A DNA stretch of 64,000 bases from an uncultured Eubacteriales bacterium (GTDB lineage Bacteria; Bacillota; Clostridia; Oscillospirales; CAG-272): NCBI GenBank assembly GCA_949451655.1, contig CASTST010000002.1:2201-66200 (forward strand). The letters run 5' to 3'. How positions within the stretch are numbered: the first letter of the stretch is position 1; each line of letters opens with the position of its first letter. The notes beneath the pieces were generated by a model. The model ran no database searches and was not told the origin of the DNA. It saw only the letters and a program-made list of their open reading frames with translations. Both the position numbers and the translations under genes were made by a program. This document shows, piece after piece, positions 8,955-39,144 of this stretch.

Positions 8955-8990
8955 AAAAAAATCAGCCACCTTTCAGTGGCTGATTTTTCT
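8955..8990. terminator. Bidirectional intrinsic terminator
   Basis: Hairpin ATCAGCCAC-CTTTCA-GTGGCTGAT (8961-8984) flanked by an upstream A-run and a downstream T-run. Lies between aroK (+) and the orphan RHS fragment (-). Confidence 0.75.
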
Positions 8991-9142
8991 ATATTAATTG
9001 GCACATTGCGATTGCATTACAGATAAAACAAATTGCACGTATGGAAACCAATACGATGCATAAAAAATGATCCGTTAAACAGGATGGATATTCAAGGCGA
9101 ATGCTTTTTGTCTGTTTCAACGAGTTGGATGCGCCTATTTTG

Positions 9143-10231: not shown

Positions 10232-10264
10232 TTTGCACAGGTTCCCGCAACAGTCGTATTCGTA
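9147..10264. repeat. 1.12-kb direct repeat, copy 1 (offset 2694 bp from copy 2)
   Basis: Aligns base for base with 11841..12958. ORF translations on both strands are identical across the centre. About 15 mismatches, clustered near both ends. Confidence 0.9.
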
Positions 10265-10326
10265 GCGGATGAATATCCAGTGTGTAACGCAGCTTGAAAA
10301 TCAAGCTGCGTTACCAATGTCACTTT

Positions 10327-21959: not shown

Positions 21960-22102
21960 GGCGGCATACTGTGGGCGGAAAATGATTCTTCACTGGGTAT
22001 TGTTCCCCTGTTCAGGAAAAAAATCCATTGAAGAGGTGGATTTTTTATGCTATACTGAAATATGTAAAAATTTGATTGGTACGGACGGGAGCTACATATC
22101 AT

Positions 22103-23526: not shown

Positions 23527-25170
23527 TTATCGTTTAAACTGATGAGGAGTACCATTCTCCTGTTCTGTACGAAACGCAATTGCTTTAATCTCCCCACCCT
23601 CGACATATATCGCTTTGATCACGTCTTGAAAGAAGTGCTTCAAGTCATAGAATGGAATGTTTTTCACACAGTTTGAAAAATCAATATCGGAGAGGTGGTA
23701 TAAGTTACGCTGGATGTAAAAGTCATAGCACGTTTTCAAATAGTCCACCTGTGGAACAGATTGCGTACTGATGCTATTTTCCAGCTGTTGTAGTTCCGCA
23801 GATAGTTTCTTTACCGCTTCTTTAAGATGATCCATTCGATCATCTGCTTTGTCAGAATTATTTGCTTCAAGGGATTCCATACGTTCTAACTCCCGTTCTT
23901 TCATCTGTATCTCAAATTTCAGTTTCCGCTGCTTATCCTGAACATCCCCATTTGAAGAACCACTTCCAAACAATGAACGTTTGATTTCTTCAGCATTAGC
24001 AAGCGCTTCAATTTCATCAAAATCCTTACCTCGAAGTAGCATCCTTTTTAACGCCAAAGGAGAAGTGGAGGGGGAAATCTGCCCACATGCCCTTAGCAGA
24101 TTGAGAAGATAGTTCATGATAAAACTGCCGACTTCTTTATCTGTAAAGTTGCTTTTCGGACAGTGGGGACACCAATAGGTAGCTGGTGATGAAAACTTGC
24201 GAGCATTTTCTTTTTCCCACGAGAGTGGAATCTGATGTGTAGTACAGGTCAATAATTCTGCAAAAAGCGGCTTTCGCACATGATAGACCGAATTTTTCCT
24301 GTCAGTATATCTCTGCTGACATCGCTCAAAGAGTTCGCTGGAGATAATAGCCGGATGATCGTTTTCCACAAGAACCAAATCCTTCTCGTCATTTATCACT
24401 CGTTCCTTTTTCGAGGTATAGCTGCGATAATTGTATCGAAGCGCACCGGTATAGGAAATGTTCGTCAGCATCCGCTCAATGGCGGGCACTAGCCATTTCT
24501 TTTTGATTCGTTCTGCTAATGGAAGACTGTTGAGATGTTTGGCTATTGCATATACCGTGATTCCCTGGTCAAACATATTGAAAATAGTGCGGATAATGTT
24601 GGCCTCTGGTTCTTCAACAGAATATTCCTTTGTTTTTGGATCCCGCCGATATCCGAAAGGGATACGGAAGCCGGTATACTCTCCAGCCTCTGCCTTTGAA
24701 AGCAGAACAGCTTTTGACCTTTCGGCGGCATTGTGTCTTTCCAGCTCTGCAAAAATCAAAATTATCTTCAATAAAGCCTGCCCTACGATACTTGAAGTAT
24801 CAAATTGCTCTGCCAGACTAATAAAAGTAACGTCTAACCTATGCAATTCTTCAAACATCTCAGTGAAATCGATGATATTTCGGCTGATACGGTCAATTTT
24901 CCAGACAATCAGATGTGAAAATTCGCCCGTACGCAGCTTTTGCATCATTTTTTGATAATCCGGGCGATCGGTGTTCTTGGCTGAGTACCCTGCGTCCCGA
25001 AAAATCTCGTATTCATTCATGTTCAATACCAACTTCGTATAGTTGATCAGCTCCCGTTCTTGTACTTTTAGGCTGTCCTTGTCAATTTGATATACGGTCG
25101 AAACGCGGATGTACAATGCGGCTTTATCTTTTGCTGCAGGGGGGATGTTGTTTTTCTTCTTCCGTGCCAT
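23527..25170 (-). CDS. Large serine recombinase
   Basis: 547 aa. Resolvase-type N-terminus with catalytic Ser context (AALYIRVSTVYQ..DSLKVQ). Recombinase domain, Cys-rich zinc-ribbon region (CTTHQ..CPHCPKS) and a C-terminal coiled coil (KLKFEIQMKERELERMESL). Confidence 0.9.
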   Translation of the reverse strand: MARKKKNNIPPAAKDKAALYIRVSTVYQIDKDSLKVQERELINYTKLVLNMNEYEIFRDAGYSAKNTDRPDYQKMMQKLRTGEFSHLIVWKIDRISRNIIDFTEMFEELHRLDVTFISLAEQFDTSSIVGQALLKIILIFAELERHNAAERSKAVLLSKAEAGEYTGFRIPFGYRRDPKTKEYSVEEPEANIIRTIFNMFDQGITVYAIAKHLNSLPLAERIKKKWLVPAIERMLTNISYTGALRYNYRSYTSKKERVINDEKDLVLVENDHPAIISSELFERCQQRYTDRKNSVYHVRKPLFAELLTCTTHQIPLSWEKENARKFSSPATYWCPHCPKSNFTDKEVGSFIMNYLLNLLRACGQISPSTSPLALKRMLLRGKDFDEIEALANAEEIKRSLFGSGSSNGDVQDKQRKLKFEIQMKERELERMESLEANNSDKADDRMDHLKEAVKKLSAELQQLENSISTQSVPQVDYLKTCYDFYIQRNLYHLSDIDFSNCVKNIPFYDLKHFFQDVIKAIYVEGGEIKAIAFRTEQENGTPHQFKR

Positions 25171-26539: not shown

Positions 26540-26998
26540 TATATTTCCCTCCATAAATTTATGATGCTTTCAATGAAGCTCATTTAAAATATGGAAGAAG
26601 TTGATGTGTCTAAATATTTAGAATGAACACGTCCGCTAAAAAGCCTTGCAGTGTAACAGCGCATTCGATTGAGAGAAGGATGTCGGCATTTTTAACAAGA
26701 ATGGTGAAATGTGCAATACACTGTATTTCCGAATAGCAAATAGAGGGAGCAAGAAAAGGGACCCTTTTATCAATAAATTGACTGTGTTCTCCAAGGAAAT
26801 CATTCCCACAGTAAAAAGGTATACCCTCTCGGGCATGATACCAGTCTTTCATGATACGGGCGAATATTGCGTTGTCATTGTTGAGCCAAACAAAAGAGAT
26901 ATAAAAGTATAGCAACAACAAGCTCAAATCATAAATGGGTAGGATAACGCACAAAAGAACAAAACCAGACATTATGCTTAATTTTGTTCCGAACATTG

Positions 26999-27027
26999 TT
27001 GATTTTATTCTGCCACAGTGGTATACT
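26999..27027 (+). promoter_or_regulatory. Sigma-70-type promoter with extended -10 upstream of the three-gene cassette
   Basis: TTGATT (26999-27004), 17 nt, TGgTATACT (-10 at 27022-27027). 28 nt upstream of the GGAGG-preceded ATG at 27055. Confidence 0.6.
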
Positions 27028-27054
27028 ATATCTGAAAAGCTTGGAGGTGCTAAC

Positions 27055-28923
27055 ATGAGTGATGCCATAACTGTAAAGGAAGCGGCAAAGCTTTGGGGAA
27101 TCACGGAGCGCCGAGTAACCGTCCTTTGCAAAGAAGGTCGGATAGAAGGGGCATATAAAAATAACCGCAGTTGGGTGATTCCTATGGATGCCGAGAAACC
27201 TGCGGACAGCCGGATTAAAACCGGTGCATATAGAAAAACCAAAACATTGTCTGGTCTACCGCTGCCGGTTGGAATTTCAGATTATCGTCTGGCCTCGACC
27301 GAGTACTACTATGTCGATAAGACCATGATGATTAAGGATTTTCTGGACGAGAGACCGATGGTGTCTCTGTTTACCCGTCCGCGCCGTTTTGGCAAAACCT
27401 TGAATATGGATATGATCCGCACCTTCTTTGAAAAGACGGACGAAGACACCTCTATTTATTTCAGAGATAAAAAAATTTGGGCTTGTGGTAAAAAATATCG
27501 AGATTATCAAGGAAAATACCCGGTGATTTTCATCACTTTTAAGGATGTGAAACGGGACTCCTGGGAGGAAACCTATGATCAGATTTCCAAGATTCTGACA
27601 CAGGAGTTCGAACGCCACAGCGAGCTCTTGGAAAGCGAGCAGTGCAGCAAATATGAGAAATCGTACTTTAAGAATGTTCTGGAAGGGAAAGCGGACAGCA
27701 CAGATATGATGATGTCCCTGCAAAGGCTCTCTCAAATGCTGGACGAGCATTATGGTATCCCACCGATTATTATCATCGATGAGTATGACACGCCGATTCA
27801 GCAGGGGCATATGAGGGGGTTTTATGATAAAGTGATTCTCTTCATGCGCAACCTCTTTTCAGGCGGCCTGAAGGATAACCGGCACCTTTCTTATGGCTTT
27901 TTAACGGGCATTCTTCGTGTGGCCAAAGAGAGCATTTTCAGCGGCCTAAACAATTTAAAAGTGAATTCCATATTGGACAACCAGTATAGTGAATATTTTG
28001 GTTTTACGCCGGAAGAGGTAAAAGCGATTGCCCTCTATTACCATGCGGGGGAGAAGTACGCGGAAATCTGTACTTGGTACGACGGGTATCGGTTCGGGGA
28101 GACGGAAATATTTAACCCATGGTCTGTCATCAACTATTTTAGCAATGGCTGTCAGCCCAAGACATTTTGGCAGTCAACCGGCAGCAATGAGATCATTGGC
28201 GAAATTTTGGCGCATGCAGGAGAAGAAATCTATGAACGACTTAATGCTTTATTGCAGGGGAAATCTTTCCTGACGTATATCGACACCGGAGTTATTTATC
28301 CACAGATTCGAAATAATCCTTCCTCCGTATACAGCTTTCTTCTGGTTGCAGGCTATCTGAAAGTCGTAAGGGGAGATCCTGCTTTCAGCGGCGATTATAT
28401 GTGCGAGGTGGCGCTGCCCAACCGGGAGATTGCGTTTGTGTATAACAAAGAGATTCTACAAAAATTGTCCGATATCATTCCACAGGCTACAGCAATCTCC
28501 ATTCAAGAAGCCTTGTATTCTAATGATGCTCAAAGGCTGCAAAAGGAGATGCATAAGCTTCTTCTCCAATCGGCAAGCTGCTACGATACTGTCGGAGAAA
28601 ACTTTTATCATGGTTTTGTTCTGGGGCTTTGCGCCATGATGGATAACCGCTACTATATCAGCTCGAATGGGGAATCCGGAGAGGGCCGATATGATATCCA
28701 ATTATTGCCTAAGTCAGAGAATATGCCAGGTATTCTGATTGAACTGAAGGCTGCCAGAAATTTCTCCGAAGACAAACTAAAGCGGCTCTCAGAGACGGCT
28801 TTGGCACAAATTCAGGATCGCAAATACGATACCGATATGATCTCAAAAGGCGTTAAAACGGTCTTCAAGTATGGCGTAGCTTTCAGCGGGAAACAGGTGG
28901 AGATTGCGGCAGCTTCCCAATGA
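27055..28923 (+). CDS. HTH + AAA-ATPase-like (PF09820-type) + PD-(D/E)XK (PDDEXK_9-type) protein
   Basis: Start ATG 27055 (GGAGG, 7-nt spacer). N-terminal HTH ITVKEAAKLWGITERRVTVLCKEGRI. Then LPVGISDYRLASTEYYYVDKTMMIKDFL..FTRPRRFGKTLNMDM, typical of the predicted AAA-ATPase family. C-terminal GESGEGRYDIQLLP..GILIELKA nuclease-fold motif. Confidence 0.85.
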   Translation: MSDAITVKEAAKLWGITERRVTVLCKEGRIEGAYKNNRSWVIPMDAEKPADSRIKTGAYRKTKTLSGLPLPVGISDYRLASTEYYYVDKTMMIKDFLDERPMVSLFTRPRRFGKTLNMDMIRTFFEKTDEDTSIYFRDKKIWACGKKYRDYQGKYPVIFITFKDVKRDSWEETYDQISKILTQEFERHSELLESEQCSKYEKSYFKNVLEGKADSTDMMMSLQRLSQMLDEHYGIPPIIIIDEYDTPIQQGHMRGFYDKVILFMRNLFSGGLKDNRHLSYGFLTGILRVAKESIFSGLNNLKVNSILDNQYSEYFGFTPEEVKAIALYYHAGEKYAEICTWYDGYRFGETEIFNPWSVINYFSNGCQPKTFWQSTGSNEIIGEILAHAGEEIYERLNALLQGKSFLTYIDTGVIYPQIRNNPSSVYSFLLVAGYLKVVRGDPAFSGDYMCEVALPNREIAFVYNKEILQKLSDIIPQATAISIQEALYSNDAQRLQKEMHKLLLQSASCYDTVGENFYHGFVLGLCAMMDNRYYISSNGESGEGRYDIQLLPKSENMPGILIELKAARNFSEDKLKRLSETALAQIQDRKYDTDMISKGVKTVFKYGVAFSGKQVEIAAASQ

Positions 28924-28965: not shown

Positions 28966-31900
28966 ATGAACAAGCAACAGGGGATGATAGAAATGGATAA
29001 ACGGATTTTCGCTTCTATGATCGTGAAGCATTGGTATCTGCTGGAGTTTTTGGGGCAATCCGATTTTCCCGTACAAAGTCGGGACAGCCGCGAGCTTTGT
29101 TCAAAAGCGGCCAAAGGAGAAACGCGTACGAAACAGATCACGGTGTATCGTTTGCTATCCGATCAAGCGGACACACACGCTAAAAATCAAAGATCGGTCT
29201 TTATAGAGCCGTATACAGCACTGCAAAGCGATGCACATGTTTATACTTCATATGGTGTGCTATCGGATGAAATCCATATTTGTTTGGGGAAGATAGAACG
29301 CTACCTGTTTGCTGAGCGCTTACAGCAAACTTTTCATCAGGATTTGGAGTTGCCGGAGAAAAACGGCAAACCTGTATGCCTCATAGGCCTGAAGTGTGAT
29401 GAACAAGGGAAGTATATTCCAGGCAGCATTCAAGTGTCCCCGTTGGCTTGGGGGATCTATCAGCTTCTACATCACGCCGAACAATTGACAAAAGAGAATA
29501 TGGCGGACTTTTTATCCATGAATTCCTATGAGTCCGATATGCAATTTTTTGACAATCAAATGGTAGAAGTGACGGAGGAAAGGCGTGTTGGACAACTGCT
29601 CACATCGGATTTGCTGAATTCTATTAGGGATCAAGCAGAAAGAAAATATTTGGTGAATATTATCCAGCGGGAACAGGAAATAAATTGGGACGGTGTCATG
29701 ATTTATCGCCGGTATAGGACCGAAGAGAATAAGGCGCGGGATACAGACGTTTTTCACGATAGTGACTTGGCCAACAGCTTTTTTGCAGATGATCTGCACA
29801 TGGTGGAAACAGCGATTAGCGATAGAGAGTTCGGCAAAAATCCGTTGGAACAGGCGATATTGGATTACATAACTGGGGTATATGCGGAAGAAAACCCAGA
29901 GCTGCATTGGCTGGATTTTCAAAATCGTATCGATGTGCACAATGTTTGGAACAACGGAAAGGAAGAAAATCGCACCGACTTTTTCCACCGCCATTTGGAT
30001 ATTGCAAAAGCTCCTCTTGGCAAATGGCCGTCCAAATTTATGCCTTGCTTGATGCAGCAGTTGGCAGTCAATTTGAGCTGGCGTCCGTCGCCGGATAACC
30101 TGCCCATTTTTTCTGTGAACGGTCCTCCTGGTACAGGAAAGACTACTCTGCTGAAGGAAATCATAGCCGGCAATATCGTGGAGCGGGCAGATTTGCTTAC
30201 CCACTATCAAGACCCGGATGACGCCTTTATTCAACGTCGCTTTCAAGATGGAGATAAGATGCACAGGGGATATTCTCAATATTGCTGGGGATATTACGAC
30301 TTTGCCGATGAACAACTGAAAGACTACGGGATGCTGGTGGCCTCGTGCAATAACGCCGCTGTGGAGAATATCACGAAGGAGCTGCCGGATGGGATGGCCC
30401 TGTTGAAAGGGATAGAGCCTGGTAAGAAGGAAGATGAGGCCGTTCGTCAAGGCCTTTTGGAAATACAGAAATTGTTTGAAATAGATGAGGCGGACAAAGA
30501 AACCTATAGAGTATGGAATCAAGAAAGATATGAATCCAAAACCTATCCGGATATCTATTTTACAAAGTTAGCCAACGATTTGGCGAAAAGGAAAGAGGGG
30601 GAATGGGATCGTTGGGGATTGATTTCTGCGCCGTTCGGGAAGATGAGCAATCTGAAGGAATATATGTATGCTGTCTTAAAAACCTATATCGGAAGCTTTG
30701 GTTCCAATGACAGCATTCAGCAGCACAAAGAGGAGTATATAGGTGCTGCCCAGCGTTTCAAGAGACAGCATGAAAAAGTCAGACAAATGGAACAAGAGCT
30801 CCAACAGATCAGCGGTGCAAGGAAACGCTTTACAGAACAACAAGCGTCGCTGGACAATCAAGCCCAAAGGACAAGAGATCTTCAATCCCAACGAGAACGG
30901 GATGCGGAAGAGTTGCTGAAGAACTTGCAGGAGCTGGCGCAGCAGTCAAAACTGGCGGAACATACCTTGAACGATTATCAGGGAGAATTGGCCGATTTAC
31001 AGCATCGGAAATCCTTCCAGGACGAAAATCAAGTGAATGCGGAAAATCAAGTCCAGGAACTCCGCCAGCAAATTATAGAGCTGGAAAACAGTCGTCAGTT
31101 TCGAGACATTGTTCTTGAAATTTTCCGTCGGCCCACCATGTTGTCTCGTACCATCCAGGAGCAGTATCGAGCCTTGGCCACGGCGGAACAGCACCTTCAA
31201 GATGAGGCGGCGAAGACGGGACAGCTGCAGCAGGAATTGGAACGTCAAAACCGGAAATGTAATTTACAAAGCGATGTCATAAGCAGCCTTGAAAATCAGC
31301 AAAACCAACTTTCAGAAAAACGAAGAAACTGTCTTGAAGAGGTAACCCGGCTGCGCCTGCAAACGGAGGAATGCTTAAAGAAGATCACACAGGCCCGCAA
31401 GTCCTATATATCGCTTTTGAAGGAGGCTTCCGAGCAGCGCGGCGCTCAGGCGATGACGGTACTGGATGAAGCGTTCTTCCATCTGTATGATAGTGAAGAG
31501 GACAAAGAATCCACTGCGGCACAGGTGGCTAATCCCTGGCACACAGCGGCCTATAATCGGGAGAGGGAGAAGTTGTTCTATGAAGCGTTAAAGCTTCATA
31601 AGGCGTTCTTATTAGGATCGAAAGCTTGTTTATGGAATTTTAAGAATCTGTTATTGCTGTGGAAAGAACCGGGGGATGATGGTAAGACTCCTGCAGCATT
31701 TTCTCAGCGCGACCGGGAAGCAGCGTTCGGTTCTTTGCTGAACACGGTGTTTTTGCTGACCCCTGTGCTTTCCACTACGTTCGCATCCGCGGGGAATATG
31801 CTGTCATCCATTCGGCATCCAGGAGAAATCGGCTGCCTGATTATCGACGAGGCTGGACAAGCCGCGCCGCAGATGGCGTTGGGATCCCTTTTCCGCTGCC

Positions 31901-33417
31901 GCCGTGCGATCGTGGTTGGTGATCCCAAGCAGGTGGAACCAGTTGTGACGGATGAAATGGATTTGATCAAACAGGTGATCCAAAACGATTATACCAGCTA
32001 TTATCAATCCAAGATCCACTCGGTTCAAGGCTTTGCCGATCGGCTGAGCACCGTAGGGACAACCTATGCCGATGGCGAACAGAAAACTTGGGTAGGATGT
32101 CCATTGGTCGTACATCGGCGTTGTATCAGCCCTATGTTTGAATTGTCCAACGCACTGTCTTATAACCACATGATGAAACAGCAGACTGCTCTGCCGGGAT
32201 CTGAAAAAGAAGCCAGATTCTGTCAGAGAAGCTCCGGCTGGATCAATGTCAGCGGAAGCGAGAACAGCAGAGCGGGCAAGGATCATTTTGTGGAAGCGCA
32301 GGGAAGAAAAGCGTGGGAACTTATCCGAGAATCATTTCGGTTATCCGAAGAAATACCGAACCTTTTCGTCATTACCCCGTTTACTACTGTGCGGGACGGC
32401 ATGAAGAAGTTGATTCGATCTCAGCCGGAGTACCGGGAGGATGAACGATTTGCCGAGTGGGTTGAAAACAACATAGGAACCGTGCACACCTTCCAGGGCA
32501 AAGAAGCGGATCAGGTCATTTTTCTGCTTGGATGCGATAAGAATGCCTTGCCGGCTGTTCGTTGGGTAAACGCTAATATTGTCAATGTGGCAGCTACCAG
32601 GGCCAAGTACCGTTTGTATGTAATCGGTGATTATACTGTTTGGCAGCATTCCGTTCTATTCCAAAAGGTAAAGGGAATTCTGGACAGCTATGCTCTTCAC
32701 GCCCTGCAAAAAGCGGCGGACAATCCCGATGTGCCGCGAAATGAAAAACAGATAGAGCAGTTGTTGCAAGAAGTGCCTGGCGCTGACTCCTTGACAATAG
32801 ATGGGGAATTGGATGATTGCCTGGTAGCACCCCTTTTTCAAGAGTTGGACGGTTTGTGGAAAAATAGTTCACTCACACCGGCACAGTTGGCGGCGTTCGG
32901 CCTTTCTGCATCCGATATGAAAAGTTTACCGTCGAAAATTCAGCAAAGGCTTACCAGCAGTATACTGCTGCATGAGCTGTTTGCCACGATGAGAGAACGG
33001 TATAACCTGGAAGATATGGATGCATCCTGTGCAGGCATCTTGTTCTGCAAGACGATGGAATCTATGCTGAAAGAAATGCTCTTAGGGAAATTGAAAGCAC
33101 TGTTTCCGGACGAGAAGACAAGTAAGGGAAAACTTTGTGATATAAAGGATCATAAAGTAACAACCGGTACCTTTACAACTCTTCTAAATAAAGAAGAATT
33201 GCGCTCCCGGTTAGCTTCCCGCAGGGCTATCCTGTTTGAACAGGTTTGCGATGATCGGTGGTGGAAAGAATATGCCGAGGAATTAGAAAAATTTCGTTTG
33301 CTGCGCAACACCTGCTGTCATTCCGAACCGCTGAACTGGCAGCAGGAGAACGAACTGATACAGATCCTTTTTGCTAAACAGGAGTTTATCAAAACACGGG
33401 TTGGCGATGCCTTGTGA
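28966..33417 (+). CDS. 1483-aa Upf1/DNA2-like SF1B helicase with coiled-coil insertion and C-terminal HEPN-like domain
   Basis: Motif I NGPPGTGKTT (30121-30144). Ia MLVASCNNAAVENI. II LIIDEAGQA (31837-31863). III AIVVGDPKQVEPV. HRRC motif. V TVHTFQGKEADQVIF. VI NVAATRAKYRLYVIGD. Heptad/Q-E-R-rich segment at about aa 585-830. C-terminal LLRNTCCHSEP (Rx4H, 33304-33321). Start could also be 28984 or 28993. Confidence 0.9.
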   Translation: MNKQQGMIEMDKRIFASMIVKHWYLLEFLGQSDFPVQSRDSRELCSKAAKGETRTKQITVYRLLSDQADTHAKNQRSVFIEPYTALQSDAHVYTSYGVLSDEIHICLGKIERYLFAERLQQTFHQDLELPEKNGKPVCLIGLKCDEQGKYIPGSIQVSPLAWGIYQLLHHAEQLTKENMADFLSMNSYESDMQFFDNQMVEVTEERRVGQLLTSDLLNSIRDQAERKYLVNIIQREQEINWDGVMIYRRYRTEENKARDTDVFHDSDLANSFFADDLHMVETAISDREFGKNPLEQAILDYITGVYAEENPELHWLDFQNRIDVHNVWNNGKEENRTDFFHRHLDIAKAPLGKWPSKFMPCLMQQLAVNLSWRPSPDNLPIFSVNGPPGTGKTTLLKEIIAGNIVERADLLTHYQDPDDAFIQRRFQDGDKMHRGYSQYCWGYYDFADEQLKDYGMLVASCNNAAVENITKELPDGMALLKGIEPGKKEDEAVRQGLLEIQKLFEIDEADKETYRVWNQERYESKTYPDIYFTKLANDLAKRKEGEWDRWGLISAPFGKMSNLKEYMYAVLKTYIGSFGSNDSIQQHKEEYIGAAQRFKRQHEKVRQMEQELQQISGARKRFTEQQASLDNQAQRTRDLQSQRERDAEELLKNLQELAQQSKLAEHTLNDYQGELADLQHRKSFQDENQVNAENQVQELRQQIIELENSRQFRDIVLEIFRRPTMLSRTIQEQYRALATAEQHLQDEAAKTGQLQQELERQNRKCNLQSDVISSLENQQNQLSEKRRNCLEEVTRLRLQTEECLKKITQARKSYISLLKEASEQRGAQAMTVLDEAFFHLYDSEEDKESTAAQVANPWHTAAYNREREKLFYEALKLHKAFLLGSKACLWNFKNLLLLWKEPGDDGKTPAAFSQRDREAAFGSLLNTVFLLTPVLSTTFASAGNMLSSIRHPGEIGCLIIDEAGQAAPQMALGSLFRCRRAIVVGDPKQVEPVVTDEMDLIKQVIQNDYTSYYQSKIHSVQGFADRLSTVGTTYADGEQKTWVGCPLVVHRRCISPMFELSNALSYNHMMKQQTALPGSEKEARFCQRSSGWINVSGSENSRAGKDHFVEAQGRKAWELIRESFRLSEEIPNLFVITPFTTVRDGMKKLIRSQPEYREDERFAEWVENNIGTVHTFQGKEADQVIFLLGCDKNALPAVRWVNANIVNVAATRAKYRLYVIGDYTVWQHSVLFQKVKGILDSYALHALQKAADNPDVPRNEKQIEQLLQEVPGADSLTIDGELDDCLVAPLFQELDGLWKNSSLTPAQLAAFGLSASDMKSLPSKIQQRLTSSILLHELFATMRERYNLEDMDASCAGILFCKTMESMLKEMLLGKLKALFPDEKTSKGKLCDIKDHKVTTGTFTTLLNKEELRSRLASRRAILFEQVCDDRWWKEYAEELEKFRLLRNTCCHSEPLNWQQENELIQILFAKQEFIKTRVGDAL

Positions 33418-33468
33418 TGACGTTTGAAAATATCCAGAACCGATTTTGTGAAAACGGAGGGAAGACGA

Positions 33469-34197
33469 ATGCATGGAAAGCTTTATTTAGAAGTTCCTTA
33501 TGCAGAAAAGGAACTCGCAAAGAGCTTGGGTGCCCAGTGGGATCCTAAGCTGAAAAAGTGGTTTTATCAAGGGCCGGTAAGCGACTATGTGAAGTTTGCG
33601 CGCTGGATTGCAGGAAACCGGGAGCTGACCATTATCGCGCATGAGTATATCTATATCGTGGAAGGAACACAGACTTGCTTTCGCTGTGGAAAGCCCACAC
33701 ATGTAATCGGCCTGGGAATTGGAGAACACACAAGATTATACTGCAATGATGACGGCAGCTTTGAGAGTGAAACCATTGAAGATTTGGTGGGATATGAGCC
33801 GCTGTTTCTTTCGTGGGTAGACGATGAAAAGGATATACCGCCAGCCCTATTAAAGTACATAAAGCAAAAATATAATGTGCGCACCGGATTTTCCAAGACA
33901 GCAGGAGAGTGCTTTGCAAATCACTGCGATCACTGCGGAGTGATACAGGGAAATTGGTATTTGTTTGAGGAGGACAGCCCTCTTACTGCTTTTATCCCGG
34001 ACGGGCCAGAGTTAAGGGATAAGTTAAGCAAACTGAAGATCTACAGTATCGGGATTGATGAAAATTTAGTTTTGGATTGGAATTTTGGTATGGGAGATAA
34101 TGATGAGCTTTATTTCAAATATTGTCCCACCAAAGAGTTGATCTTGCCTCCTAGCGACGATGCATACATCACCTATGCTGATATGTATAAACCGTAA
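33469..34197 (+). CDS. DUF5710-like N-terminal domain protein with CxxC...CxxC module
   Basis: ATG 33469, 7 nt after GGAGGG. KLYLEVPYAEKELAKSLGAQWDPKLKKWFY matches the DUF5710 pattern. CFRCGK and CDHCG pairs lie about 85 aa apart. The ORF track's upstream TTG start at 33424 is less likely. Confidence 0.7.
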   Translation: MHGKLYLEVPYAEKELAKSLGAQWDPKLKKWFYQGPVSDYVKFARWIAGNRELTIIAHEYIYIVEGTQTCFRCGKPTHVIGLGIGEHTRLYCNDDGSFESETIEDLVGYEPLFLSWVDDEKDIPPALLKYIKQKYNVRTGFSKTAGECFANHCDHCGVIQGNWYLFEEDSPLTAFIPDGPELRDKLSKLKIYSIGIDENLVLDWNFGMGDNDELYFKYCPTKELILPPSDDAYITYADMYKP

Positions 34198-34298
34198 ATG
34201 GCTGTATTTTATGCTTCATCAAAGCTTAAGAACGCCAAATTTTTCGCCCTTCATATTGACTTTCCAGCTAAAACCTGCTATTATAAATATACAGAAAA

Positions 34299-34335
34299 GC
34301 GGTGCAGGGAAAGTGTCCCCGCACCGCTCTTTTTT
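34299..34335 (+). terminator. Intrinsic terminator closing the cassette
   Basis: GCGGTGCAGGG-AAAGTGT-CCCCGCACCGC followed by TCTTTTTT. A second hairpin GAAGCCCTCGGAA..TTCCGAGGGCTTC lies at about 34377-34427. Confidence 0.75.
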
Positions 34336-34592: not shown

Positions 34593-35462
34593 ATGATGAA
34601 AGGGATTTTGCTTGCAGGCGGTAAGGCGACGCGGTTTCGACCAGCAACACAGGCAGTTTCCAAACAACTGCTATGCGTGTATGATAAACCGTTGATCTAT
34701 TACCCGCTAACGATGCTGATCGAAATGGGGATTCAGGAAATCGCCATCATTGCGGCAGGAGAAACAGTAGATGTCTATCGCAAGCTACTGGGAGATGGCA
34801 GCCGATTTGGAACAACTTTTACCTACTTGACACAGCCGGAACCGGGCGGAATCGCACAGGCATTTTTAATCGCACGCCATTTTATCGGAAAAGAAAAAGT
34901 TTGTCTGCTGCTTGGGGACAATATCTTTTTGAACGCACATCCCAATCGTATCGCCGCTATGGCTGCAAATACGGATAATGCGTATATATTAGCACTCCCG
35001 CATCGAAACCCGTCCCAATATGGTGTCGTTTCATGCAGCAGACGCGGGGAGGTCCTTTCTATAGAGGAAAAACCGCAAAAACCGCAATCTCATTTTATCG
35101 TGCCCGGCTTGTACTTTTATAACGCTTCTGTGGTACAAACAGCAGAAAATCTGCAGGTTTCCCCCCGAGGGGAATTGGAAATCACAGATATCAACAAATA
35201 CTACTGGAAAAAATCCACCTTAAAAGTTATTTATCCCAGCAAAAAAACGAAGTGGTTTGATGCCGGATGTCCCGAGGATCTATATCATGCAGTACGGGTG
35301 GTTCGTCAAAAGCAAAAACAAACGGGAAAACAAATCGGATGTCCCGAAGAGGCTGCCTTTCGACAAGGCTGGATCGGGCGGCGCGAATTGGAACAAAGCA
35401 TGAGACAAAATTGTCATTCAGCGTATGGACAATATTTAATGGAGCTGATGGAACATGCATAA
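34593..35462 (+). CDS. rfbA: Glucose-1-phosphate thymidylyltransferase
   Basis: MKGILLAGGKATRFRPATQAVSKQLLCVYDKPLIYYPL and LGDNIF motifs. Confidence 0.85.
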   Translation: MMKGILLAGGKATRFRPATQAVSKQLLCVYDKPLIYYPLTMLIEMGIQEIAIIAAGETVDVYRKLLGDGSRFGTTFTYLTQPEPGGIAQAFLIARHFIGKEKVCLLLGDNIFLNAHPNRIAAMAANTDNAYILALPHRNPSQYGVVSCSRRGEVLSIEEKPQKPQSHFIVPGLYFYNASVVQTAENLQVSPRGELEITDINKYYWKKSTLKVIYPSKKTKWFDAGCPEDLYHAVRVVRQKQKQTGKQIGCPEEAAFRQGWIGRRELEQSMRQNCHSAYGQYLMELMEHA

Positions 35463-35998
35463 ACGCATGATGATAACCGGTGCGGGCGGTATGGTCGGCA
35501 GACAGGCTGTACACTATTTTCGTGAAAGTTATGCAGTGACCGCGCTGACCAGAACCATAGTATCCATAGCAGACAAGGAATCTGTGAAGCAGGATTTCAA
35601 ATTGTAAAACCCGATAAGCCTTTACAGTCGGACAAAAGCTTGAAATTTTAGGAAATCAATATGGCAATCCAACCAGCGTGTCAGAGCTATTAAATATGAT
35701 TGCCTTGCTTTAACAAACAAAAGCATACGGTATTTATCATGCTGTATGTCTTGGAAGAACAAGCCGGTTGCACTTTGCCAGGCAAATCATCCTGGAAGCG
35801 GGATTGGATGTTCCCGCTCAGGAGATAAACAAAGATAGAGAACCCATATTGGACACATCCCTTTCAACAAAAAAACTACAGCAGATAATCCAATATACCC
35901 CTGTCCATTGGGATAAAGCACTCACAGACTATATAGACGAGGCAAAATATGAAAATTTTATCCAGTGTCCTGAACGGAGTTTTAAAAATCGGGGCTAA
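35455..35998 (+). pseudogene. rfbD: dTDP-4-dehydrorhamnose reductase remnant (internal deletion, stops and frameshifts)
   Basis: N-terminal piece MMITGAGGMVGRQ..VTALTR..ADKESVKQDF then a stop at 35605. Out-of-frame middle piece GNQYGNPTSVSELLNMIALL / YGIYHAV. C-terminal piece FARQIILEAGLDV..PVHWDKALTDYI (ORF 35768..35998). Far too short for an intact RfbD. Confidence 0.7.
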
Positions 35999-36497
35999 GC
36001 AACATAACGATTCGCGCGGCTGGTTTTGTGAGGGATACCGGCAGGACACCTTTCAACAGCTGCAGATACATAATGTTTTTGTGCAGGATAATTATTCGCA
36101 CACCATAAAAAGAGGAACGATCCGCGGATTGCATTATCAGAAGGAACCGTATGCGCAGACCAAGCTGTTCCGCTGCATCAGCGGCGCAGTATACGATGTG
36201 GTAGTAGATCTTCGACAGCACTCTGCAACGTATCTTCAATGGGCTGGATTTGTGTTAAGTGGAGACCGATTTGAATGGCTGCTCGTCCCCAAAGGGTTTG
36301 CACATGGATTTCAGGCACTTTGCGATCACTGTGACGTGCAATACAAGGTGGATGAAACCTATCATCCGGATGCGGAGCGGTGTATCTGCTGGAATGATCC
36401 GACACTGGGAATTACCTGGCCTGTCCCACAGGTAATTTTATCTGCAAAAGACCGGCAGGGTATGAGGATTGCCGAACTCGGGCATACAGGAGAATAG
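35949..36497 (+). CDS. rfbC: dTDP-4-dehydrorhamnose 3,5-epimerase
   Basis: DSRGWFCE, RGLHYQ, KLFRCISGAVYDVVVDLR and VPKGFAHGF motifs. Confidence 0.85.
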   Translation: MKILSSVLNGVLKIGAKQHNDSRGWFCEGYRQDTFQQLQIHNVFVQDNYSHTIKRGTIRGLHYQKEPYAQTKLFRCISGAVYDVVVDLRQHSATYLQWAGFVLSGDRFEWLLVPKGFAHGFQALCDHCDVQYKVDETYHPDAERCICWNDPTLGITWPVPQVILSAKDRQGMRIAELGHTGE

Positions 36498-36501
36498 AAT
36501 C

Positions 36502-37524
36502 ATGCTAACCAATCAATTTAATCCTCAGGATAAGTTGCTGCAATACATAGACAAAATCAATGCTTTTCTGTCTATTGGAAAAACCTTGGTGGTTGCAGAA
36601 CTGGATTTGACCAACCGCTGCAACAATCGCTGCCCTGCCTGTATTGGAAAAAACACAGTGAAAGACGAGCTGACGTGGAATGAAATCCAACGAATTGCAG
36701 ATGGTCTACAGGAGTTGGATTGCAAAGGAGTCATTTTAAGCGGAGGGGGAGAACCATTGCTCCATCCCCTGTTTATACAAACAATTGCACTTTTGCAGGA
36801 AAAAGGATTACAAATCGGCATCAACACAAATGGCCTGGCGCTGGATCAAGAGAAGGCGGAAGCGATTGTCAAATACTGCAAATACTGTCGAATTAGCCTA
36901 GATAGCGGGGATGCCGAATTTTATCGAAAAACGCACGGAATGGATGCACAAGCATTTGACAATGTTGTGAAAAATATCCGCCTTTTCGCTGCTGTCAAAA
37001 AGAGAGCAGGCGCGCTTTTAAGCCTTGGGACAGGCTTTTTAACGAGCAAGGAAACTGTCGGGCAAATGGAACGCTTTGTAAAATTGTCCCAAGAATGCGG
37101 CGTGGATTTTGCTCAATTCCGTCCGTTTCAGGAAGATACAACGGATATTTCGGCGGAATATGAGCGATTAAAAAAAATATATGATAAGGACGGATTTCGG
37201 GTAGTAGCATCACAGCAAAAATACAAAGCCTTCAAAGAAGGAAAAAAGAAACCATATAATCGCTGCCGCGGTATGTTTTTTTCCACTGTCATCACCGCAA
37301 ACGCCAGGGTTTATGCCTGCCTTCATCACCGGCAGGATCCCCGCTATCTGATTGGAGATATGCGGGCGGGAATTTCACTGGTTGACATTTGGAACTCCCA
37401 TCGGAAATGGCAGGTGTTTGAACAAATTGACGTGCAAGAATGTCCTGCTTTCTGCCGTAATGATGCAATCAACCGGACGTTGGATGGATTGAGTGAAAAG
37501 GTATTTCATCAGGAATTTTTATGA
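36502..37524 (+). CDS. Radical SAM protein
   Basis: CNNRCPAC (Cx3Cx2C) cluster motif in LDLTNRCNNRCPACIG, plus GGGEPLLHP. Start ATG 36502 with RBS AGGAGA. A terminator hairpin AATTCCCCGGC..GCCGGGGAAT follows. Confidence 0.75.
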   Translation: MLTNQFNPQDKLLQYIDKINAFLSIGKTLVVAELDLTNRCNNRCPACIGKNTVKDELTWNEIQRIADGLQELDCKGVILSGGGEPLLHPLFIQTIALLQEKGLQIGINTNGLALDQEKAEAIVKYCKYCRISLDSGDAEFYRKTHGMDAQAFDNVVKNIRLFAAVKKRAGALLSLGTGFLTSKETVGQMERFVKLSQECGVDFAQFRPFQEDTTDISAEYERLKKIYDKDGFRVVASQQKYKAFKEGKKKPYNRCRGMFFSTVITANARVYACLHHRQDPRYLIGDMRAGISLVDIWNSHRKWQVFEQIDVQECPAFCRNDAINRTLDGLSEKVFHQEFL

Positions 37525-37611
37525 TTTACATAAGCAATTCCCCGGCACATGCCGGGGAATGAACTTCTTTAGAATGAAAAACACAAAGAAAGGAAAAATC
37601 AGAGGGAACAA

Positions 37612-37639
37612 TTGACAAGTATATTTAAACAGTTATAAT
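37612..37639 (+). promoter_or_regulatory. Consensus-like promoter upstream of ORF 37676
   Basis: TTGACA (37612-37617), 16 nt, TATAAT (37634-37639). Confidence 0.55.
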
Positions 37640-37675
37640 AAGAAGTGTAGTTATATTTAAAATCGGGGGAAAAAT

Positions 37676-38143
37676 ATGTTTGGAATCGGGAAACGGAAAA
37701 AAACAAAAAAGTATGTGCAACAATATAACGATTTGCGGCTTCTTTATTTTAACAAACCAGTTGATGAGGATGTTTCTGCTGCCCTCGACCTCGAAAAAAG
37801 AACATTTGCATTAAAATGGAATAATACCCTGTATATTATGGCGTGGGACAGGCTTTCAGCGTCCTACTACCGTGACATTTATACAACCTTTCTTGCCCAG
37901 GGAAGAGAAGTTTTTTCTGATCATTGGCAGGTCATGCATAATCTGCTGCTGCGGGAAAAAGAAAGTCGGGAACGACAAGGCGAAATAAAAAGCCGTGACG
38001 GAATTAAAATTACATATCAAACAAAAGAAAACGGCATACTGACATGCCTGCTTACCTCAGAGGTACTTCTCTCCATGCCCCACATATATCAGGATCTGCA
38101 TGCATGCATCGGCAGCAAGGATTTTGAAATGGTTGAACTATAA
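37676..38143 (+). CDS. Hypothetical protein
   Basis: 155-aa ORF behind a strong promoter and a GGGGGA RBS. No recognisable motif. AT-rich. Confidence 0.5.
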   Translation: MFGIGKRKKTKKYVQQYNDLRLLYFNKPVDEDVSAALDLEKRTFALKWNNTLYIMAWDRLSASYYRDIYTTFLAQGREVFSDHWQVMHNLLLREKESRERQGEIKSRDGIKITYQTKENGILTCLLTSEVLLSMPHIYQDLHACIGSKDFEMVEL

Positions 38144-38172
38144 TGCTGTATGTAAATCAGGAGCACCCTATT

Positions 38173-39144
38173 ATGGAACAAAAAAAGAAAATTCTTTCGG
38201 TTGCAGGTCCCACTGCATCGGGAAAAACAGCGTTGGCTATATCCCTTGCACGCCGACTTGATGGCGAAGTAATATCCAATGATTCCATGCAGGTTTATAC
38301 GGGAATGACCATCGGCACTGCTGCACCGACAGAATCGGAAATGGGAAATATCCCCCATCACATGATTGCAGCAGTACCGCCTACGGCAGATTTTTCATGC
38401 GCGGACTATGCCGAAATGGCAGCGCCGATTGTGGAAGATATCCTTTCCCGGGATCATCTGCCGGTATTCTGCGGCGGAACAGGGCTGTATCTGGACGCTA
38501 TTTTATATGGGGACGGTTTATCCGACAGCACAAAAAATCCCGCGGTGCGGGCATGTTTTGAAGCAGTTGCCCGGGAGCAGGGCGCAGACGCGCTGCACGG
38601 ACTGCTTGCTGCGGTGGATCCGGAATCTGCGGCAGCCATTCATCCGAACAATGTGCGCCGGGTAATCCGAGCTTTGGAAATCTATGAAACCACTGGGATC
38701 CCGAAATCCCAGTTTGACGGACTTTCCCCTACAGCAGAGGCAAAATACGACTGCGTGAGAATCGTGCTATCCTTTCAGTCCCGCCAGCTTTTGTATGAGC
38801 GAATCGACAGACGGGTTGCAGAAATGATGCAGGCAGGGCTGCTGGAGGAAGTAACCGGGCTATATAAATCAGGACTGCTGCGTGAAGACGCGCCCGCATT
38901 TCAGGCGATTGGATATAAGGAATTTCTGCCGTATTTTGCTGGGGAGTGCACTTTGGAACAGACAGTTGATGAGATTTGCCGCAATACCCGCAGATATGCC
39001 AAGCGGCAGATCACCTGGTTCAAGCGGTATCCTGAGGCGATTATTGTTTCTGTGGATGCGCATGGACAAATGCGCCCCACAGAGGAGCTTGCAGAGGAAG
39101 TTTGCATAGAACTGTATAATCGGCATTTTTTCGGAAACGGATAA
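38173..39144 (+). CDS. miaA: tRNA dimethylallyltransferase
   Basis: ILSVAGPTASGKTALAISLA..VISNDSMQVYTGMTIGTAAPT, IHPNNVRRVIRALE and RQITWF motifs. ATG 38173 (RBS CAGGAG) is preferred over the ORF-track start at 38143. Confidence 0.85.
   Translation: MEQKKKILSVAGPTASGKTALAISLARRLDGEVISNDSMQVYTGMTIGTAAPTESEMGNIPHHMIAAVPPTADFSCADYAEMAAPIVEDILSRDHLPVFCGGTGLYLDAILYGDGLSDSTKNPAVRACFEAVAREQGADALHGLLAAVDPESAAAIHPNNVRRVIRALEIYETTGIPKSQFDGLSPTAEAKYDCVRIVLSFQSRQLLYERIDRRVAEMMQAGLLEEVTGLYKSGLLREDAPAFQAIGYKEFLPYFAGECTLEQTVDEICRNTRRYAKRQITWFKRYPEAIIVSVDAHGQMRPTEELAEEVCIELYNRHFFGNG

What the first reader, a model, noticed from the sequence alone, without database searches (positions are those of the whole stretch)
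32683..33417. C-terminal ~245 aa of the helicase carry an Rx4H HEPN-like motif
Helicase motif VI (NVAATRAKYRLYVIGD) ends near aa 1222. The remaining 245 aa or so are predicted-helical in character and end with FRLLRNTCCHSEP. This gives R1447-N-T-C-C-H1452 (nt 33304-33321), the R-N-x-x-x-H form of the Rx4-6H signature of HEPN RNases. It lies near the C-terminus, where the fourth HEPN helix would sit. A helicase-tethered HEPN would make this protein a potential nucleic-acid-triggered RNase (abortive-infection logic).
Basis: partly seen in the sequence, partly recalled or inferred. Interest (0 to 1): 0.65.

Follow-up and report, generated by a model that had tools for sequence, protein, structure and literature searches.

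The report
Helicase with a C-terminal HEPN-like RNase domain
A 1483-residue bacterial helicase of a phage-defence type ends in a previously unannotated domain with the hallmarks of a HEPN RNA-cutting enzyme, so it is probably a single-protein antiviral system that couples nucleic-acid sensing to RNA cleavage; this is a new variant of a known design, not a new principle.

Summary
ORF 28966-33417 (+) encodes 1483 aa, motif VI ends at aa 1222, and R1447-N-T-C-C-H1452 lies at nt 33304-33321.

The motif alone is not significant: the protein has 7 Rx4-6H strings and about 6 are expected. Only this one is conserved. Across 95 homologous domains (down to about 20% identity) R is 95/95, N 90/95 and H 92/95. 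An upstream E1365-x3-K1369 (E 94/95) matches the second HEPN motif.

A high-confidence AlphaFold model (pLDDT 97.4) gives the HEPN layout: helix 1, helix 2 carrying the Glu, a 50-residue insert, helix 3 ending in RNxCCH, and helix 4.

No curated family reaches threshold. The only recurrent weak Pfam hits are HEPN families, and most of the weak PADLOC hits are to HEPN-bearing models. Foldseek finds nothing significant, but its three best TM-scores are HEPN structures.

The helicase core matches Mokosh MkoC (5e-64) but has no PLD domain. The full architecture is conserved in 40 of 47 genome loci, almost all Bacillota, with no conserved neighbour. A sister clade stops right after motif VI. The same domain also ends STAND NTPases and an SF2 helicase.

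Verdict: interpretation supported at the bioinformatic level; a new variant of a known kind; moderate interest.

The parts
28966..33417 (+). Whole gene: 1483-aa SF1 (Upf1-like, Mokosh MkoC-like) helicase with a C-terminal HEPN-like domain
   Evidence: ORF list and translation. Pfam AAA_11/AAA_12/Viral_helicase1. PADLOC MkoC 5.3e-64, aa 380-1260. Closest solved helicases are Upf1/NAM7. Full length conserved in 40 of 47 genome loci; the rest are cut by contig ends or N-terminally shortened.
28966..30000 (+). N-terminal domain (aa 1-345), family-specific, no known family. Conserved start motif ILDYWxxxEFLGQ. Possible sensor.
   Evidence: No Pfam, PADLOC or NCBIfam hit. Conserved positions in the 38-sequence alignment.
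30121..30144 (+). Walker A, GPPGTGKT (aa 386-393)
   Evidence: Regex. At least 95% conserved.
30718..31500 (+). Poorly conserved, coiled-coil-like insertion in RecA1 (about aa 585-845), after Walker A
   Evidence: Only weak matches, to coiled-coil parts of SMC/JetC/Rad50/LmuB. E/K/Q/R-rich. Mean column identity about 0.3.
31837..31854 (+). Walker B / motif II, LIIDEA(GQ) (aa 958-963)
   Evidence: Regex. Conserved.
32110..32631 (+). RecA2 (AAA_12, aa 1049-1222), ending with motif VI NVAATRAKYRLYVIGD (nt 32584-32631)
   Evidence: Pfam AAA_12 5.9e-12. Positions confirmed.
32632..32925 (+). Linker (aa 1223-1320), helical and poorly conserved. Five HEPN-less sister proteins read in full end about 19-25 aa after motif VI, which corresponds to window aa ~1241-1247.
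   Evidence: Low pLDDT and helices in model 1. C-termini of five sister proteins.
32926..33414 (+). HEPN-like core (aa 1321-1483). Helix 1 aa 1323-1346; helix 2 aa 1354-1379; insert aa 1380-1429; helix 3 aa 1430-1451; helix 4 aa 1458-1470.
   Evidence: AlphaFold2 on a 52-sequence alignment, pLDDT 97.4 and pTM 0.91. Weak but recurrent HEPN-family hits.
33058..33072 (+). E1365-S-M-L-K1369: the Ex3[KR] motif in helix 2, the predicted second active-site element
   Evidence: E is 94/95; K or R is 76/95. E is 30/30 in distant full-length homologues. Motif defined in PMC3710099.
33304..33321 (+). R1447-N-T-C-C-H1452: the Rx4H motif at the end of helix 3, predicted catalytic
   Evidence: R 95/95, N 90/95, C 80/95, C 86/95, H 92/95. 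29/30 in distant full-length homologues.
33424..34197 (+). Downstream co-directional gene (DUF5710 plus Cys-rich region) starting 6 nt after the helicase stop. An occasional neighbour, not a conserved partner.
   Evidence: Pfam DUF5710 5.2e-14. Homologues directly downstream in L004 and L050/L051, and weakly in L047. Absent from most loci.
26935..28923 (+). Upstream co-directional gene (HTH + AAA-ATPase_like + PDDEXK_9). Linked only in close relatives.
   Evidence: Pfam. Found only in L001-L003 and L010 next to the helicase.
34295..34331 (.). 16-bp G+C-rich hairpin after the three-gene cluster; likely terminator
   Evidence: Terminator-like scan.

Best explanation
The last ~160 residues (aa ~1321-1483) are a divergent, so far unannotated member of the HEPN superfamily with an intact predicted RNase site: E1365 in helix 2, and R1447, N1448 and H1452 at the end of helix 3. 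A ~100-residue linker joins it to an ATPase-competent Upf1-like SF1 helicase whose core is closest to Mokosh MkoC.

The protein is a stand-alone, single-gene module found sporadically in Bacillota, in several loci beside restriction or defence genes.

Inferred mechanism: the helicase, together with its N-terminal domain and coiled-coil insertion, engages foreign RNA or replication/transcription intermediates. ATP-driven binding or translocation, or self-association, brings two HEPN domains together, since HEPN RNases normally act as dimers. The composite Rx4H site then cleaves RNA without metal. The result is either degradation of phage transcripts or growth arrest.

Shown here: the motifs, their conservation, the helix order, the domain boundary, the modular reuse of the domain, and the absence of a conserved partner gene. 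Inferred: RNase activity, the target, dimer-dependent activation, and the defence role.
For: Motif and coordinates.

Conservation in 95 domains down to ~20% identity: R 95/95, N 90/95, H 92/95, E1365 94/95, K/R1369 76/95. It is the only conserved Rx4-6H string of the seven in the protein.

AlphaFold2 gives pLDDT 97.4 and pTM 0.91. The helix order matches the published HEPN description: acidic residue in helix 2, insert between helices 2 and 3, motif at the end of helix 3 (PMC3710099).

A Pfam scan of 52 members found only four recurrent families: HEPN_Swt1 (6 members), HEPN_RiboL-PSP (4, best 9e-4), Abi_2 (3) and HEPN_MAE_28990 (3). Family consensus sequences hit Abi_2 at 1.7e-3, HEPN_MAE_28990 at 2.5e-3, HEPN_Swt1 at 0.016 and DUF4145 at 0.038. 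All these matches span the motif.

PADLOC hits: AbiD 2.3e-5, Csx1 3.1e-4, Csm6-like and CARF_HEPN models, PD-T4-2_B. Consensus sequences of the other parts of the protein give no HEPN hit.

In the Foldseek PDB search the three highest target-normalised TM-scores are HEPN structures: 2hsb 0.54, 5yep_B 0.48 and 7bxo_F 0.48. No other listed hit exceeds 0.32.

The domain is modular. A sister group of helicases stops soon after motif VI: about 19-25 aa in the five read in full. The same domain also terminates STAND NTPases and an SF2 DEAD helicase.

The helicase core matches MkoC at 5.3e-64. Walker A, motif II and motif VI are conserved. There is no conserved neighbour. Neighbours include GmrSD, McrBC, Gabija, BrxL and RM systems.
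Against: No curated HEPN model (Pfam, NCBIfam, PADLOC) reaches its threshold for the window protein itself.

Foldseek E-values are 0.98 or worse, and the HEPN hits have TM-scores of only 0.39-0.41 when normalised to the query.

Profile and sequence searches of PDB sequences find nothing. hhalign against the E. coli RnlA HEPN domain gives no match.

I could not read the model coordinates, so the proximity of E1365 to R1447/H1452 is not verified.

The HEPN-less sister clade shows that the helicase can work without this domain. HEPN is therefore an added effector, not the only possible output.

No experimental data exist for this family or for defence by it.
Confidence: 0.72

Rival explanations
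1. The domain has the HEPN fold but is not a nuclease. It would act as an RNA- or nucleotide-binding or dimerisation module that regulates the helicase. Any effector function would lie elsewhere, for example in the uncharacterised N-terminal domain.
For: A sister clade with the same N-terminal domain and helicase lacks the C-terminal domain, and also sits in defence islands. Some output must therefore exist without HEPN. Inactive HEPN domains are known (PMC3710099).
Against: Inactive HEPN domains lose the Rx4-6H motif or the acidic residue. Here R, N, H and E are kept in 90-95 of 95 sequences, which include three unrelated NTPase contexts. That pattern is typical of a catalytic effector.
Confidence: 0.13
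2. The conserved C-C-H next to the Arg, together with C1355 and C1361 in helix 2, forms a metal (Zn) or redox-sensitive site. On this reading the domain is a Cys/His metal-binding or redox-switch module, and the resemblance to Rx4H is secondary.
For: C1450 is 80/95 and C1451 is 86/95. C1361 is 74/95 overall and 30/30 in distant full-length homologues. A Zn ion lies near the HEPN motif in P. furiosus Csx1 (PMC3710099).
Against: C1355 and C1361 are replaced (P, A) in the STAND-linked subfamily consensus, while RNxCCH and the Glu stay. Some members have RNxxAH or RNxVCH. The model is an all-helical bundle with no zinc-ribbon or treble-clef element. The weak matches are to HEPN RNases, not to Zn-binding families.
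Confidence: 0.07
3. The tail is an ordinary helical extension of the helicase, and the R-x4-H string is a coincidence.
For: Rx4-6H strings occur 7 times in this protein and about 6.3 are expected. No significant hit for the window protein in any curated library.
Against: There is invariant conservation of this one motif and of the Ex3K partner. The region is an independently mobile domain. The folded domain is modelled with high confidence. HEPN-specific weak hits recur.
Confidence: 0.03

Closest known systems
Mokosh type II (MkoC), and type I MkoA/MkoB
   Same: The Upf1/MOV10-like SF1 helicase core matches the PADLOC MkoC model at 5.3e-64 over aa 380-1260. Like MkoC it is a single large protein combining a helicase with a nuclease-type effector. 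In several loci the family sits beside defence or restriction genes.
   Different: Mokosh is defined by a PLD nuclease (10.1101/2022.12.12.520048; PMC10952713). This protein has no PLD Pfam hit and no HxKx4D motif. The first 266 and last 156 positions of the MkoC model are unmatched. A HEPN-like domain takes the place of the PLD, and the N-terminal domain is different.
CoCoNuT type II/III CnuH helicase with CnuE HEPN effector (PMC11090510)
   Same: It is a UPF1-like SF1 helicase with a large, partly coiled-coil helical insertion after Walker A, coupled to a HEPN RNase with an RxxxxH motif. In type III-B CoCoNuTs the effector is fused directly to the helicase.
   Different: Here the HEPN is fused in cis. 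There is no wHTH-HEPN CnuE gene and no conserved McrB/McrC (CnuB/CnuC) or TerY-P genes: McrBC is adjacent in 1 locus (L035) and no partner is conserved. The SmpB-like and RelE-like N-terminal domains of CnuH were not detected.
Hhe (HEPN-helicase-Vsr) and the SF1 helicase-HEPN fusions listed by Anantharaman et al. 2013
   Same: Each is a single polypeptide that combines an SF1 helicase with a HEPN domain carrying Rx4-6H. They are predicted or shown to act in defence.
   Different: The NCBIfam Hhe model scores 27 bits against a cut-off of 2000, and only over motif II. There is no DUF4011, Vsr/REase, transglutaminase or wHTH module. The domain order also differs.
PrrC / RloC anticodon nucleases
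   Same: Same logic: an NTPase domain regulates a C-terminal HEPN RNase. From my own knowledge, RloC also carries a long coiled-coil insertion in its ATPase.
   Different: In those proteins the NTPase is ABC/Rad50-like, not an SF1 helicase. PrrC is kept silent by a type I RM partner, whereas no partner is conserved here. Anticodon specificity is untested.
Abi2/AbiD/AbiF, Swt1-like, RiboL-PSP and MAE_28990 HEPN families
   Same: These are the best weak sequence matches. They share the RNxxxH form of the motif and the upstream acidic residue.
   Different: All matches are below the curated thresholds (best 19 bits against about 26-28). This family has its own signature, D-x-S-C-x2-I-L-F-C-K-x2-E ... 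W-W ... R-N-x-C-C-H, and a ~50-residue insert with two short hairpins.

Membership tests
HEPN superfamily | Conserved Rx4-6H motif | tested here: met
   R1447 is 95/95 and H1452 is 92/95 in diverse domains. 29/30 in full-length homologues below 50% identity. It is the only conserved Rx4-6H string of seven.
HEPN superfamily | Polar residue (N, D or H) immediately after the Arg | tested here: met
   N1448 is 90/95. Criterion from PMC3710099.
HEPN superfamily | Second conserved acidic residue in helix 2, typically Ex3[KR] | tested here: met
   E1365 is 94/95 and K/R1369 is 76/95. E1365 lies in predicted helix 2, aa 1354-1379.
HEPN superfamily | Four-helix bundle of two alpha-hairpins with an insert between helices 2 and 3, and the motif at the end of helix 3 | tested here: met
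   AlphaFold2 pLDDT 97.4. Helices at aa 1323-1346, 1354-1379, 1430-1451 and 1458-1470, with an insert at aa 1380-1429. R1447 is in the last turn of helix 3 and H1452 is the first residue after it. Only the order of elements was checked; I could not read the coordinates.
HEPN superfamily | Significant structural similarity to solved HEPN domains | tested here: inconclusive
   Foldseek against PDB: best E-value 0.98. The top three target-normalised TM-scores are HEPN structures (2hsb 0.54, 5yep_B 0.48, 7bxo_F 0.48; rmsd 5.7-6.3 A).
HEPN superfamily | Significant profile match to a curated HEPN family | tested here: inconclusive
   No hit for the window protein. Members and consensus sequences give recurrent sub-threshold hits only to HEPN families. 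One member hits PADLOC AbiD at 2.3e-5 and another hits Csx1 at 3.1e-4. hhalign against RnlA was negative.
HEPN superfamily | Metal-independent RNase activity giving 2',3'-cyclic phosphate ends; dimeric composite active site | not testable with these tools
   Needs biochemistry, or at least multimer modelling.
Mokosh type II (MkoC) | MOV10/Upf1-like RNA helicase core | tested here: met
   PADLOC MkoC 5.3e-64, protein aa 380-1260 against profile positions 267-980 of 1136. Closest PDB sequences are Upf1/NAM7.
Mokosh type II (MkoC) | PLD (HKD) nuclease domain | tested here: not met
   No PLD family in Pfam. No HxKx4D motif. The C-terminal 156 positions of the MkoC model are unmatched.
CoCoNuT type II/III | cnuH helicase in conserved association with McrB/McrC homologues and a wHTH-effector gene (cnuE) | tested here: not met
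   No neighbour gene is conserved across 48 loci. McrB+McrC are adjacent only in L035.
Hhe | DUF4011 + SF1 helicase + Vsr-like endonuclease; NCBIfam NF042953 | tested here: not met
   27 bits against a cut-off of 2000, aligned over 36 residues only.
Pfam Abi_2 / HEPN_Swt1 / HEPN_RiboL-PSP / HEPN_MAE_28990 / DUF4145 | Score above the family's gathering threshold | tested here: not met
   Best scores are 19.1, 18.5, 15.9 and 14.5 bits against cut-offs of 23-28. Best single member: E = 9e-4.

The most novel reading that the evidence does not exclude
This is the founding example of an undescribed HEPN family, with signature DxSCxxILFCKxxE...WW...RNxCCH. Three unrelated NTPase chassis use it as an interchangeable C-terminal effector: Mokosh-like SF1 helicases, SF2 DEAD helicases and STAND NTPases. 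In this protein it replaces the PLD nuclease of Mokosh. That would make a single-gene, RNA-targeting 'Mokosh-HEPN' defence system. The invariant Cys-Cys next to the catalytic His may add a metal or redox control at the HEPN dimer interface.
Probability: 0.4. Interest if true: 0.6.

Novelty: new variant of a known kind. Interest (0 to 1): 0.45.

Why it matters
Public sources name these proteins only 'DEAD/DEAH box helicase', 'AAA domain-containing protein' or 'hypothetical protein', and the last 240 residues carry no domain annotation. Defence-finding tools would at best call them incomplete Mokosh.

Recognising a HEPN effector has three consequences:
- It gives a testable output, RNA cleavage, for a widespread group of helicases in gut Bacillota.
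- It shows effector swapping (PLD to HEPN, or no effector) on one helicase chassis. The HEPN-less sister clade provides a natural with/without comparison.
- It adds a HEPN family that Pfam (2025 copy), NCBIfam 20.0 (June 2026) and PADLOC 2.0.0 (2023) do not detect at their thresholds.

It does not change the concept. NTPase-coupled HEPN RNases are a well-known design in prokaryotic immunity.

Tried and rejected
- The word-index protein search with the domain alone and with the 52-sequence alignment returned only close relatives (at least 69% identity). The exhaustive representative search was needed to reach distant ones.
- Model 1, built on the shallow alignment, was poor (pLDDT 56.9) and was not used for fold search.
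- Foldseek against BFVD gave nothing interpretable.
- PDB sequence searches with two profiles and one divergent member gave no relevant hits.
- I tried to obtain a bona fide HEPN family alignment for hhalign and failed. The supplement of PMC3710099 is only a link page. Plasmid pNP40 is not in the collection. tblastn of the family consensus against plasmids found nothing. A motif grep of all held loci found no Abi-like gene. hhalign against the single E. coli RnlA HEPN domain gave no alignment.
A 12-sequence subset worked.
- The idea that the upstream AAA-ATPase_like/PDDEXK_9 gene or the downstream DUF5710 gene is an obligatory partner was rejected. Neither is conserved beyond a few loci.
- The 297-aa 'stand-alone' homologue P0002 turned out to be a fragment of a gene called in five pieces (frameshifted, or MAG assembly error), not a free HEPN protein.
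- Cluster look-ups gave no source names.
- The N-terminal domain, linker and insertion have no Pfam family.
Full report
**Observation.** The window has an ATG-initiated ORF at 28966-33417 (+) encoding 1483 aa. Motif VI (NVAATRAKYRLYVIGD) is aa 1207-1222. FRLLRNTCCHSEP is aa 1443-1455. R1447-N-T-C-C-H1452 is encoded by nt 33304-33321. Every coordinate in the finding is correct.

The motif alone is not evidence. The protein contains seven Rx4-6H strings and about 6.3 are expected from its composition. Only the stricter R-N-x3-H form is unexpected, at 0.095 expected occurrences.

**Curated libraries.** Pfam finds only SF1 helicase families. These are split by a large insertion: Walker A near aa 386, and AAA_11/AAA_12 at aa 934-1222. 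PADLOC matches the Mokosh type II protein MkoC at 5.3e-64 over aa 380-1260, which covers model positions 267-980 of 1136. NCBIfam gives only fragmentary helicase hits. The closest solved structures by sequence are Upf1/NAM7. For aa 1225-1483 none of the three libraries returns a relevant hit. The protein has no PLD family hit and no HxKx4D motif.

**Homologues of the tail.**
- A word-index search found only close relatives, all at least 69% identical and all keeping RN.CCH.
- An exhaustive HMMER search of 1.84 billion cluster representatives found 263 proteins at E <= 1e-3, of which 107 are at E <= 1e-10.
- I aligned the 95 sequences that cover the core; they go down to about 20% identity to the window.
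- In that alignment R1447 is 95/95, N1448 90/95, C1450 80/95, C1451 86/95 and H1452 92/95. Also conserved are E1365 (94/95), K/R1369 (76/95), G1401 (93/95), W1432 and W1433 (88 and 87 of 95) and F1469 (89/95).
- As a control I used 30 full-length homologues below 50% identity. The R1447/H1452 pair is kept in 29 of 30, and the other sequence has a gap there. No other string keeps both residues. Five keep neither (R 0-57%, H 0-3%), and R1102..H1107 keeps its H in all 30 but its R in only 13%.

**Comparison with the definition of HEPN.** Anantharaman et al. 2013 (PMC3710099) give these features:
- The Rx4-6H motif is the strongest feature.
- The residue after the Arg is usually N, D or H.
- Many families have a second acidic residue, typically within Ex3[KR], in helix 2.
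- Inserts are frequent between helices 2 and 3.

The family here has R-N-x-C-C-H and E1365-x3-K1369.

An AlphaFold2 model of aa 1302-1483, built on a 52-sequence alignment, has pLDDT 97.4 and pTM 0.91. The shallow-alignment model had reached only pLDDT 56.9. The good model has helices at aa 1323-1346, 1354-1379 (containing E1365), 1430-1451 (containing R1447, with H1452 as the first residue after it) and 1458-1470. Between helices 2 and 3 lies a 50-residue insert with two small hairpins and two short helices.

This is the HEPN order of elements.

**Sequence links to known HEPN families.** None reaches a curated threshold, but the signal is specific.
- Scanning the 52 members one by one against Pfam, the only families hit by more than one member are HEPN_Swt1 (6), HEPN_RiboL-PSP (4, best 9e-4), Abi_2 (3) and HEPN_MAE_28990 (3).
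- Family consensus sequences hit Abi_2 (1.7e-3), HEPN_MAE_28990 (2.5e-3) and HEPN_Swt1 (0.016). The STAND-linked subfamily consensus hits DUF4145 (0.038). All matched stretches include the motif.
- Against PADLOC, members hit AbiD (2.3e-5), Csx1 (3.1e-4), Csm6-like and CARF_HEPN models and PD-T4-2_B.
- Consensus sequences of the N-terminal domain, the linker and the insertion of the same protein give no HEPN hit.

**Structure search.** Foldseek against PDB has no significant match; the best E-value is 0.98. The three highest target-normalised TM-scores are all HEPN structures: 2hsb 0.54, 5yep_B 0.48 and 7bxo_F 0.48. No other listed hit exceeds 0.32. BFVD was uninformative. I could not access the model coordinates, so the spatial clustering of E1365, R1447 and H1452 is unverified.

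**The domain is a discrete module.**
- A full-length search found 2709 proteins at E <= 1e-30. Sources name them only 'DEAD/DEAH box helicase', 'AAA domain-containing protein' or 'hypothetical protein', and they carry only helicase Pfam domains.
- Among the 111 best hits of at least 1150 aa, 79 carry the domain and 32 do not. Most of the 32 are about 1215-1230 aa. The five read in full end about 19-25 residues after motif VI.
- No HEPN domain was found nearby in those loci.
- In a rough NJ tree of the helicase core, 24 of the HEPN-less proteins form one block between HEPN-bearing clades.
- The same domain also ends STAND-type NTPases of about 650-770 aa, one of which also has an OST-HTH/LOTUS domain. 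It also ends a 1727-aa STAND protein and a 1288-aa SF2 DEAD-box helicase.

Reuse at the C-terminus of different NTPases is the usual behaviour of an effector domain.

**Genomic context.**
- In the window the gene lies in a lower-GC stretch (37-47% against 52.6% to the left). This stretch sits between queA and an rml sugar cluster and also holds a large serine recombinase.
- The gene is flanked by an HTH/AAA-ATPase_like/PDDEXK_9 gene upstream and a DUF5710 gene downstream. A strong hairpin follows at 34295-34331.
- A scan of one genome per species found 47 loci, almost all Bacillota and mostly Lachnospiraceae and relatives.
- In 40 of the 47 loci the match spans essentially the whole protein, most of them at about 32-39% identity. 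The others are cut by contig ends or N-terminally shortened.
- No neighbouring gene is conserved.
- Neighbours include two GmrSD genes (L021), McrB+McrC (L035) and a UvrD-like helicase (L032).
- HEPN-less sisters lie next to Gabija and a type III RM system, next to BrxL and GmrSD, and next to a type I RM system.

This is a single-gene module, and in several loci it lies beside restriction or defence genes.

**Mechanism.**
- Shown: an ATPase-competent Upf1-like helicase, with Walker A, motif II and motif VI conserved. It has a poorly conserved coiled-coil-like insertion and a family-specific N-terminal domain, and it is fused to a HEPN-like domain with all predicted catalytic residues.
- Inferred: the helicase recognises foreign RNA or RNA/DNA intermediates, as proposed for Mokosh (10.1101/2024.10.26.620412). 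Nucleic-acid- and ATP-dependent change, or self-association, assembles a HEPN dimer. This cleaves RNA without metal, hitting either phage transcripts or host RNA (abortive infection).

**Closest analogues.**
- Mokosh: same helicase core but a PLD effector.
- CoCoNuT CnuH/CnuE: a UPF1-like helicase with a coiled-coil insertion plus a HEPN effector, but with McrBC and a separate effector gene.
- Hhe and the SF1-HEPN fusions noted in 2013.
- PrrC/RloC: NTPase-gated HEPN anticodon nucleases.

The protein fails the defining features of Mokosh (no PLD), Hhe (no DUF4011 or Vsr) and CoCoNuT (no McrBC). It works like these systems without being a member of any of them.

**Verdict.** My confidence is about 0.85 for a HEPN-type fold with an intact site, and about 0.7 for the full helicase-gated RNase defence model. 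It is a new variant of a known kind: an unannotated HEPN family that serves as a swappable effector, here on a Mokosh-like helicase. Interest is moderate.

Noticed in passing
window 9147-10260 and 11841-12950: A ~1.1-kb direct repeat, 99-100% identical. One copy lies inside the 1920-aa RHS-repeat gene (10982-16744, minus strand). The other covers the ORF 9143-10231 (minus strand) just downstream of it. This looks like a partial duplication or orphan RHS fragment.
   Followed up: partly
window 23527-25170 (-), with 22076-23194 (queA) and 34593-39144 (rml genes, radical SAM, miaA): A large serine recombinase sits between queA and the helicase cluster. GC is 37-47% in 23.5-34.2 kb against 52.6% to the left. 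In close relatives (L001-L003, L005-L007, L010, L011) the helicase gene also lies just downstream of queA, which suggests an insertion hot spot.
   Followed up: partly
window 33424-34197; L004 3916-4686; L050/L051 10805-11578; L047 10578-11156: A DUF5710-family gene with CxxC...CxxC-like cysteines lies directly downstream of the helicase in four independent contexts. One of these is a HEPN-less sister helicase that is only ~38% identical (E = 1e-34 between the two DUF5710 proteins). It is absent from most loci, so it is a possible optional accessory gene.
   Followed up: partly
window 26935-28923: A 662-aa protein with an N-terminal HTH, an AAA-ATPase_like domain (PF09820) and PDDEXK_9 (PF08011) is encoded 43 nt upstream on the same strand. 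Truncated copies sit in the same position in L001/L010 and L002.
   Followed up: partly
L001 / L010 (Lachnospiraceae MAG JAAWAV010000013), 6453-10891: The orthologous helicase-HEPN gene is called as five separate ORFs there, so it is frameshifted. It is either a decaying copy or a MAG assembly error. It is followed by a 1074-aa UvrD-type helicase with MJ0043_C.
   Followed up: partly
L004 (contig CAKXAF010000141, labelled 'uncultured thaumarchaeote' MAG): This contig carries a helicase-HEPN gene 85-90% identical to the window's, plus the same DUF5710 gene. All other loci are Bacillota except L048, a Fervidobacterium MAG. The contig is probably mis-binned.
   Followed up: no
L053 5055-8321: The type I restriction subunit HsdR next to a HEPN-less sister helicase has a weak N-terminal DUF4145 (HEPN) hit. 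This is an example of the RM-HEPN fusions described in 2013.
   Followed up: no
P0274, P0285 (1182-1189 aa relatives): Two HEPN-less relatives of the helicase carry a topoisomerase-type zinc finger (PF01396) in their precomputed Pfam list. This is another variation on the same helicase chassis.
   Followed up: no
window 28966-30000 (aa 1-345): The N-terminal domain is conserved across the family, including the HEPN-less clade. It has a near-invariant ILDYWxxxEFLGQ start motif but no match in Pfam, PADLOC or NCBIfam. Its role (sensor or second effector) is open.
   Followed up: partly
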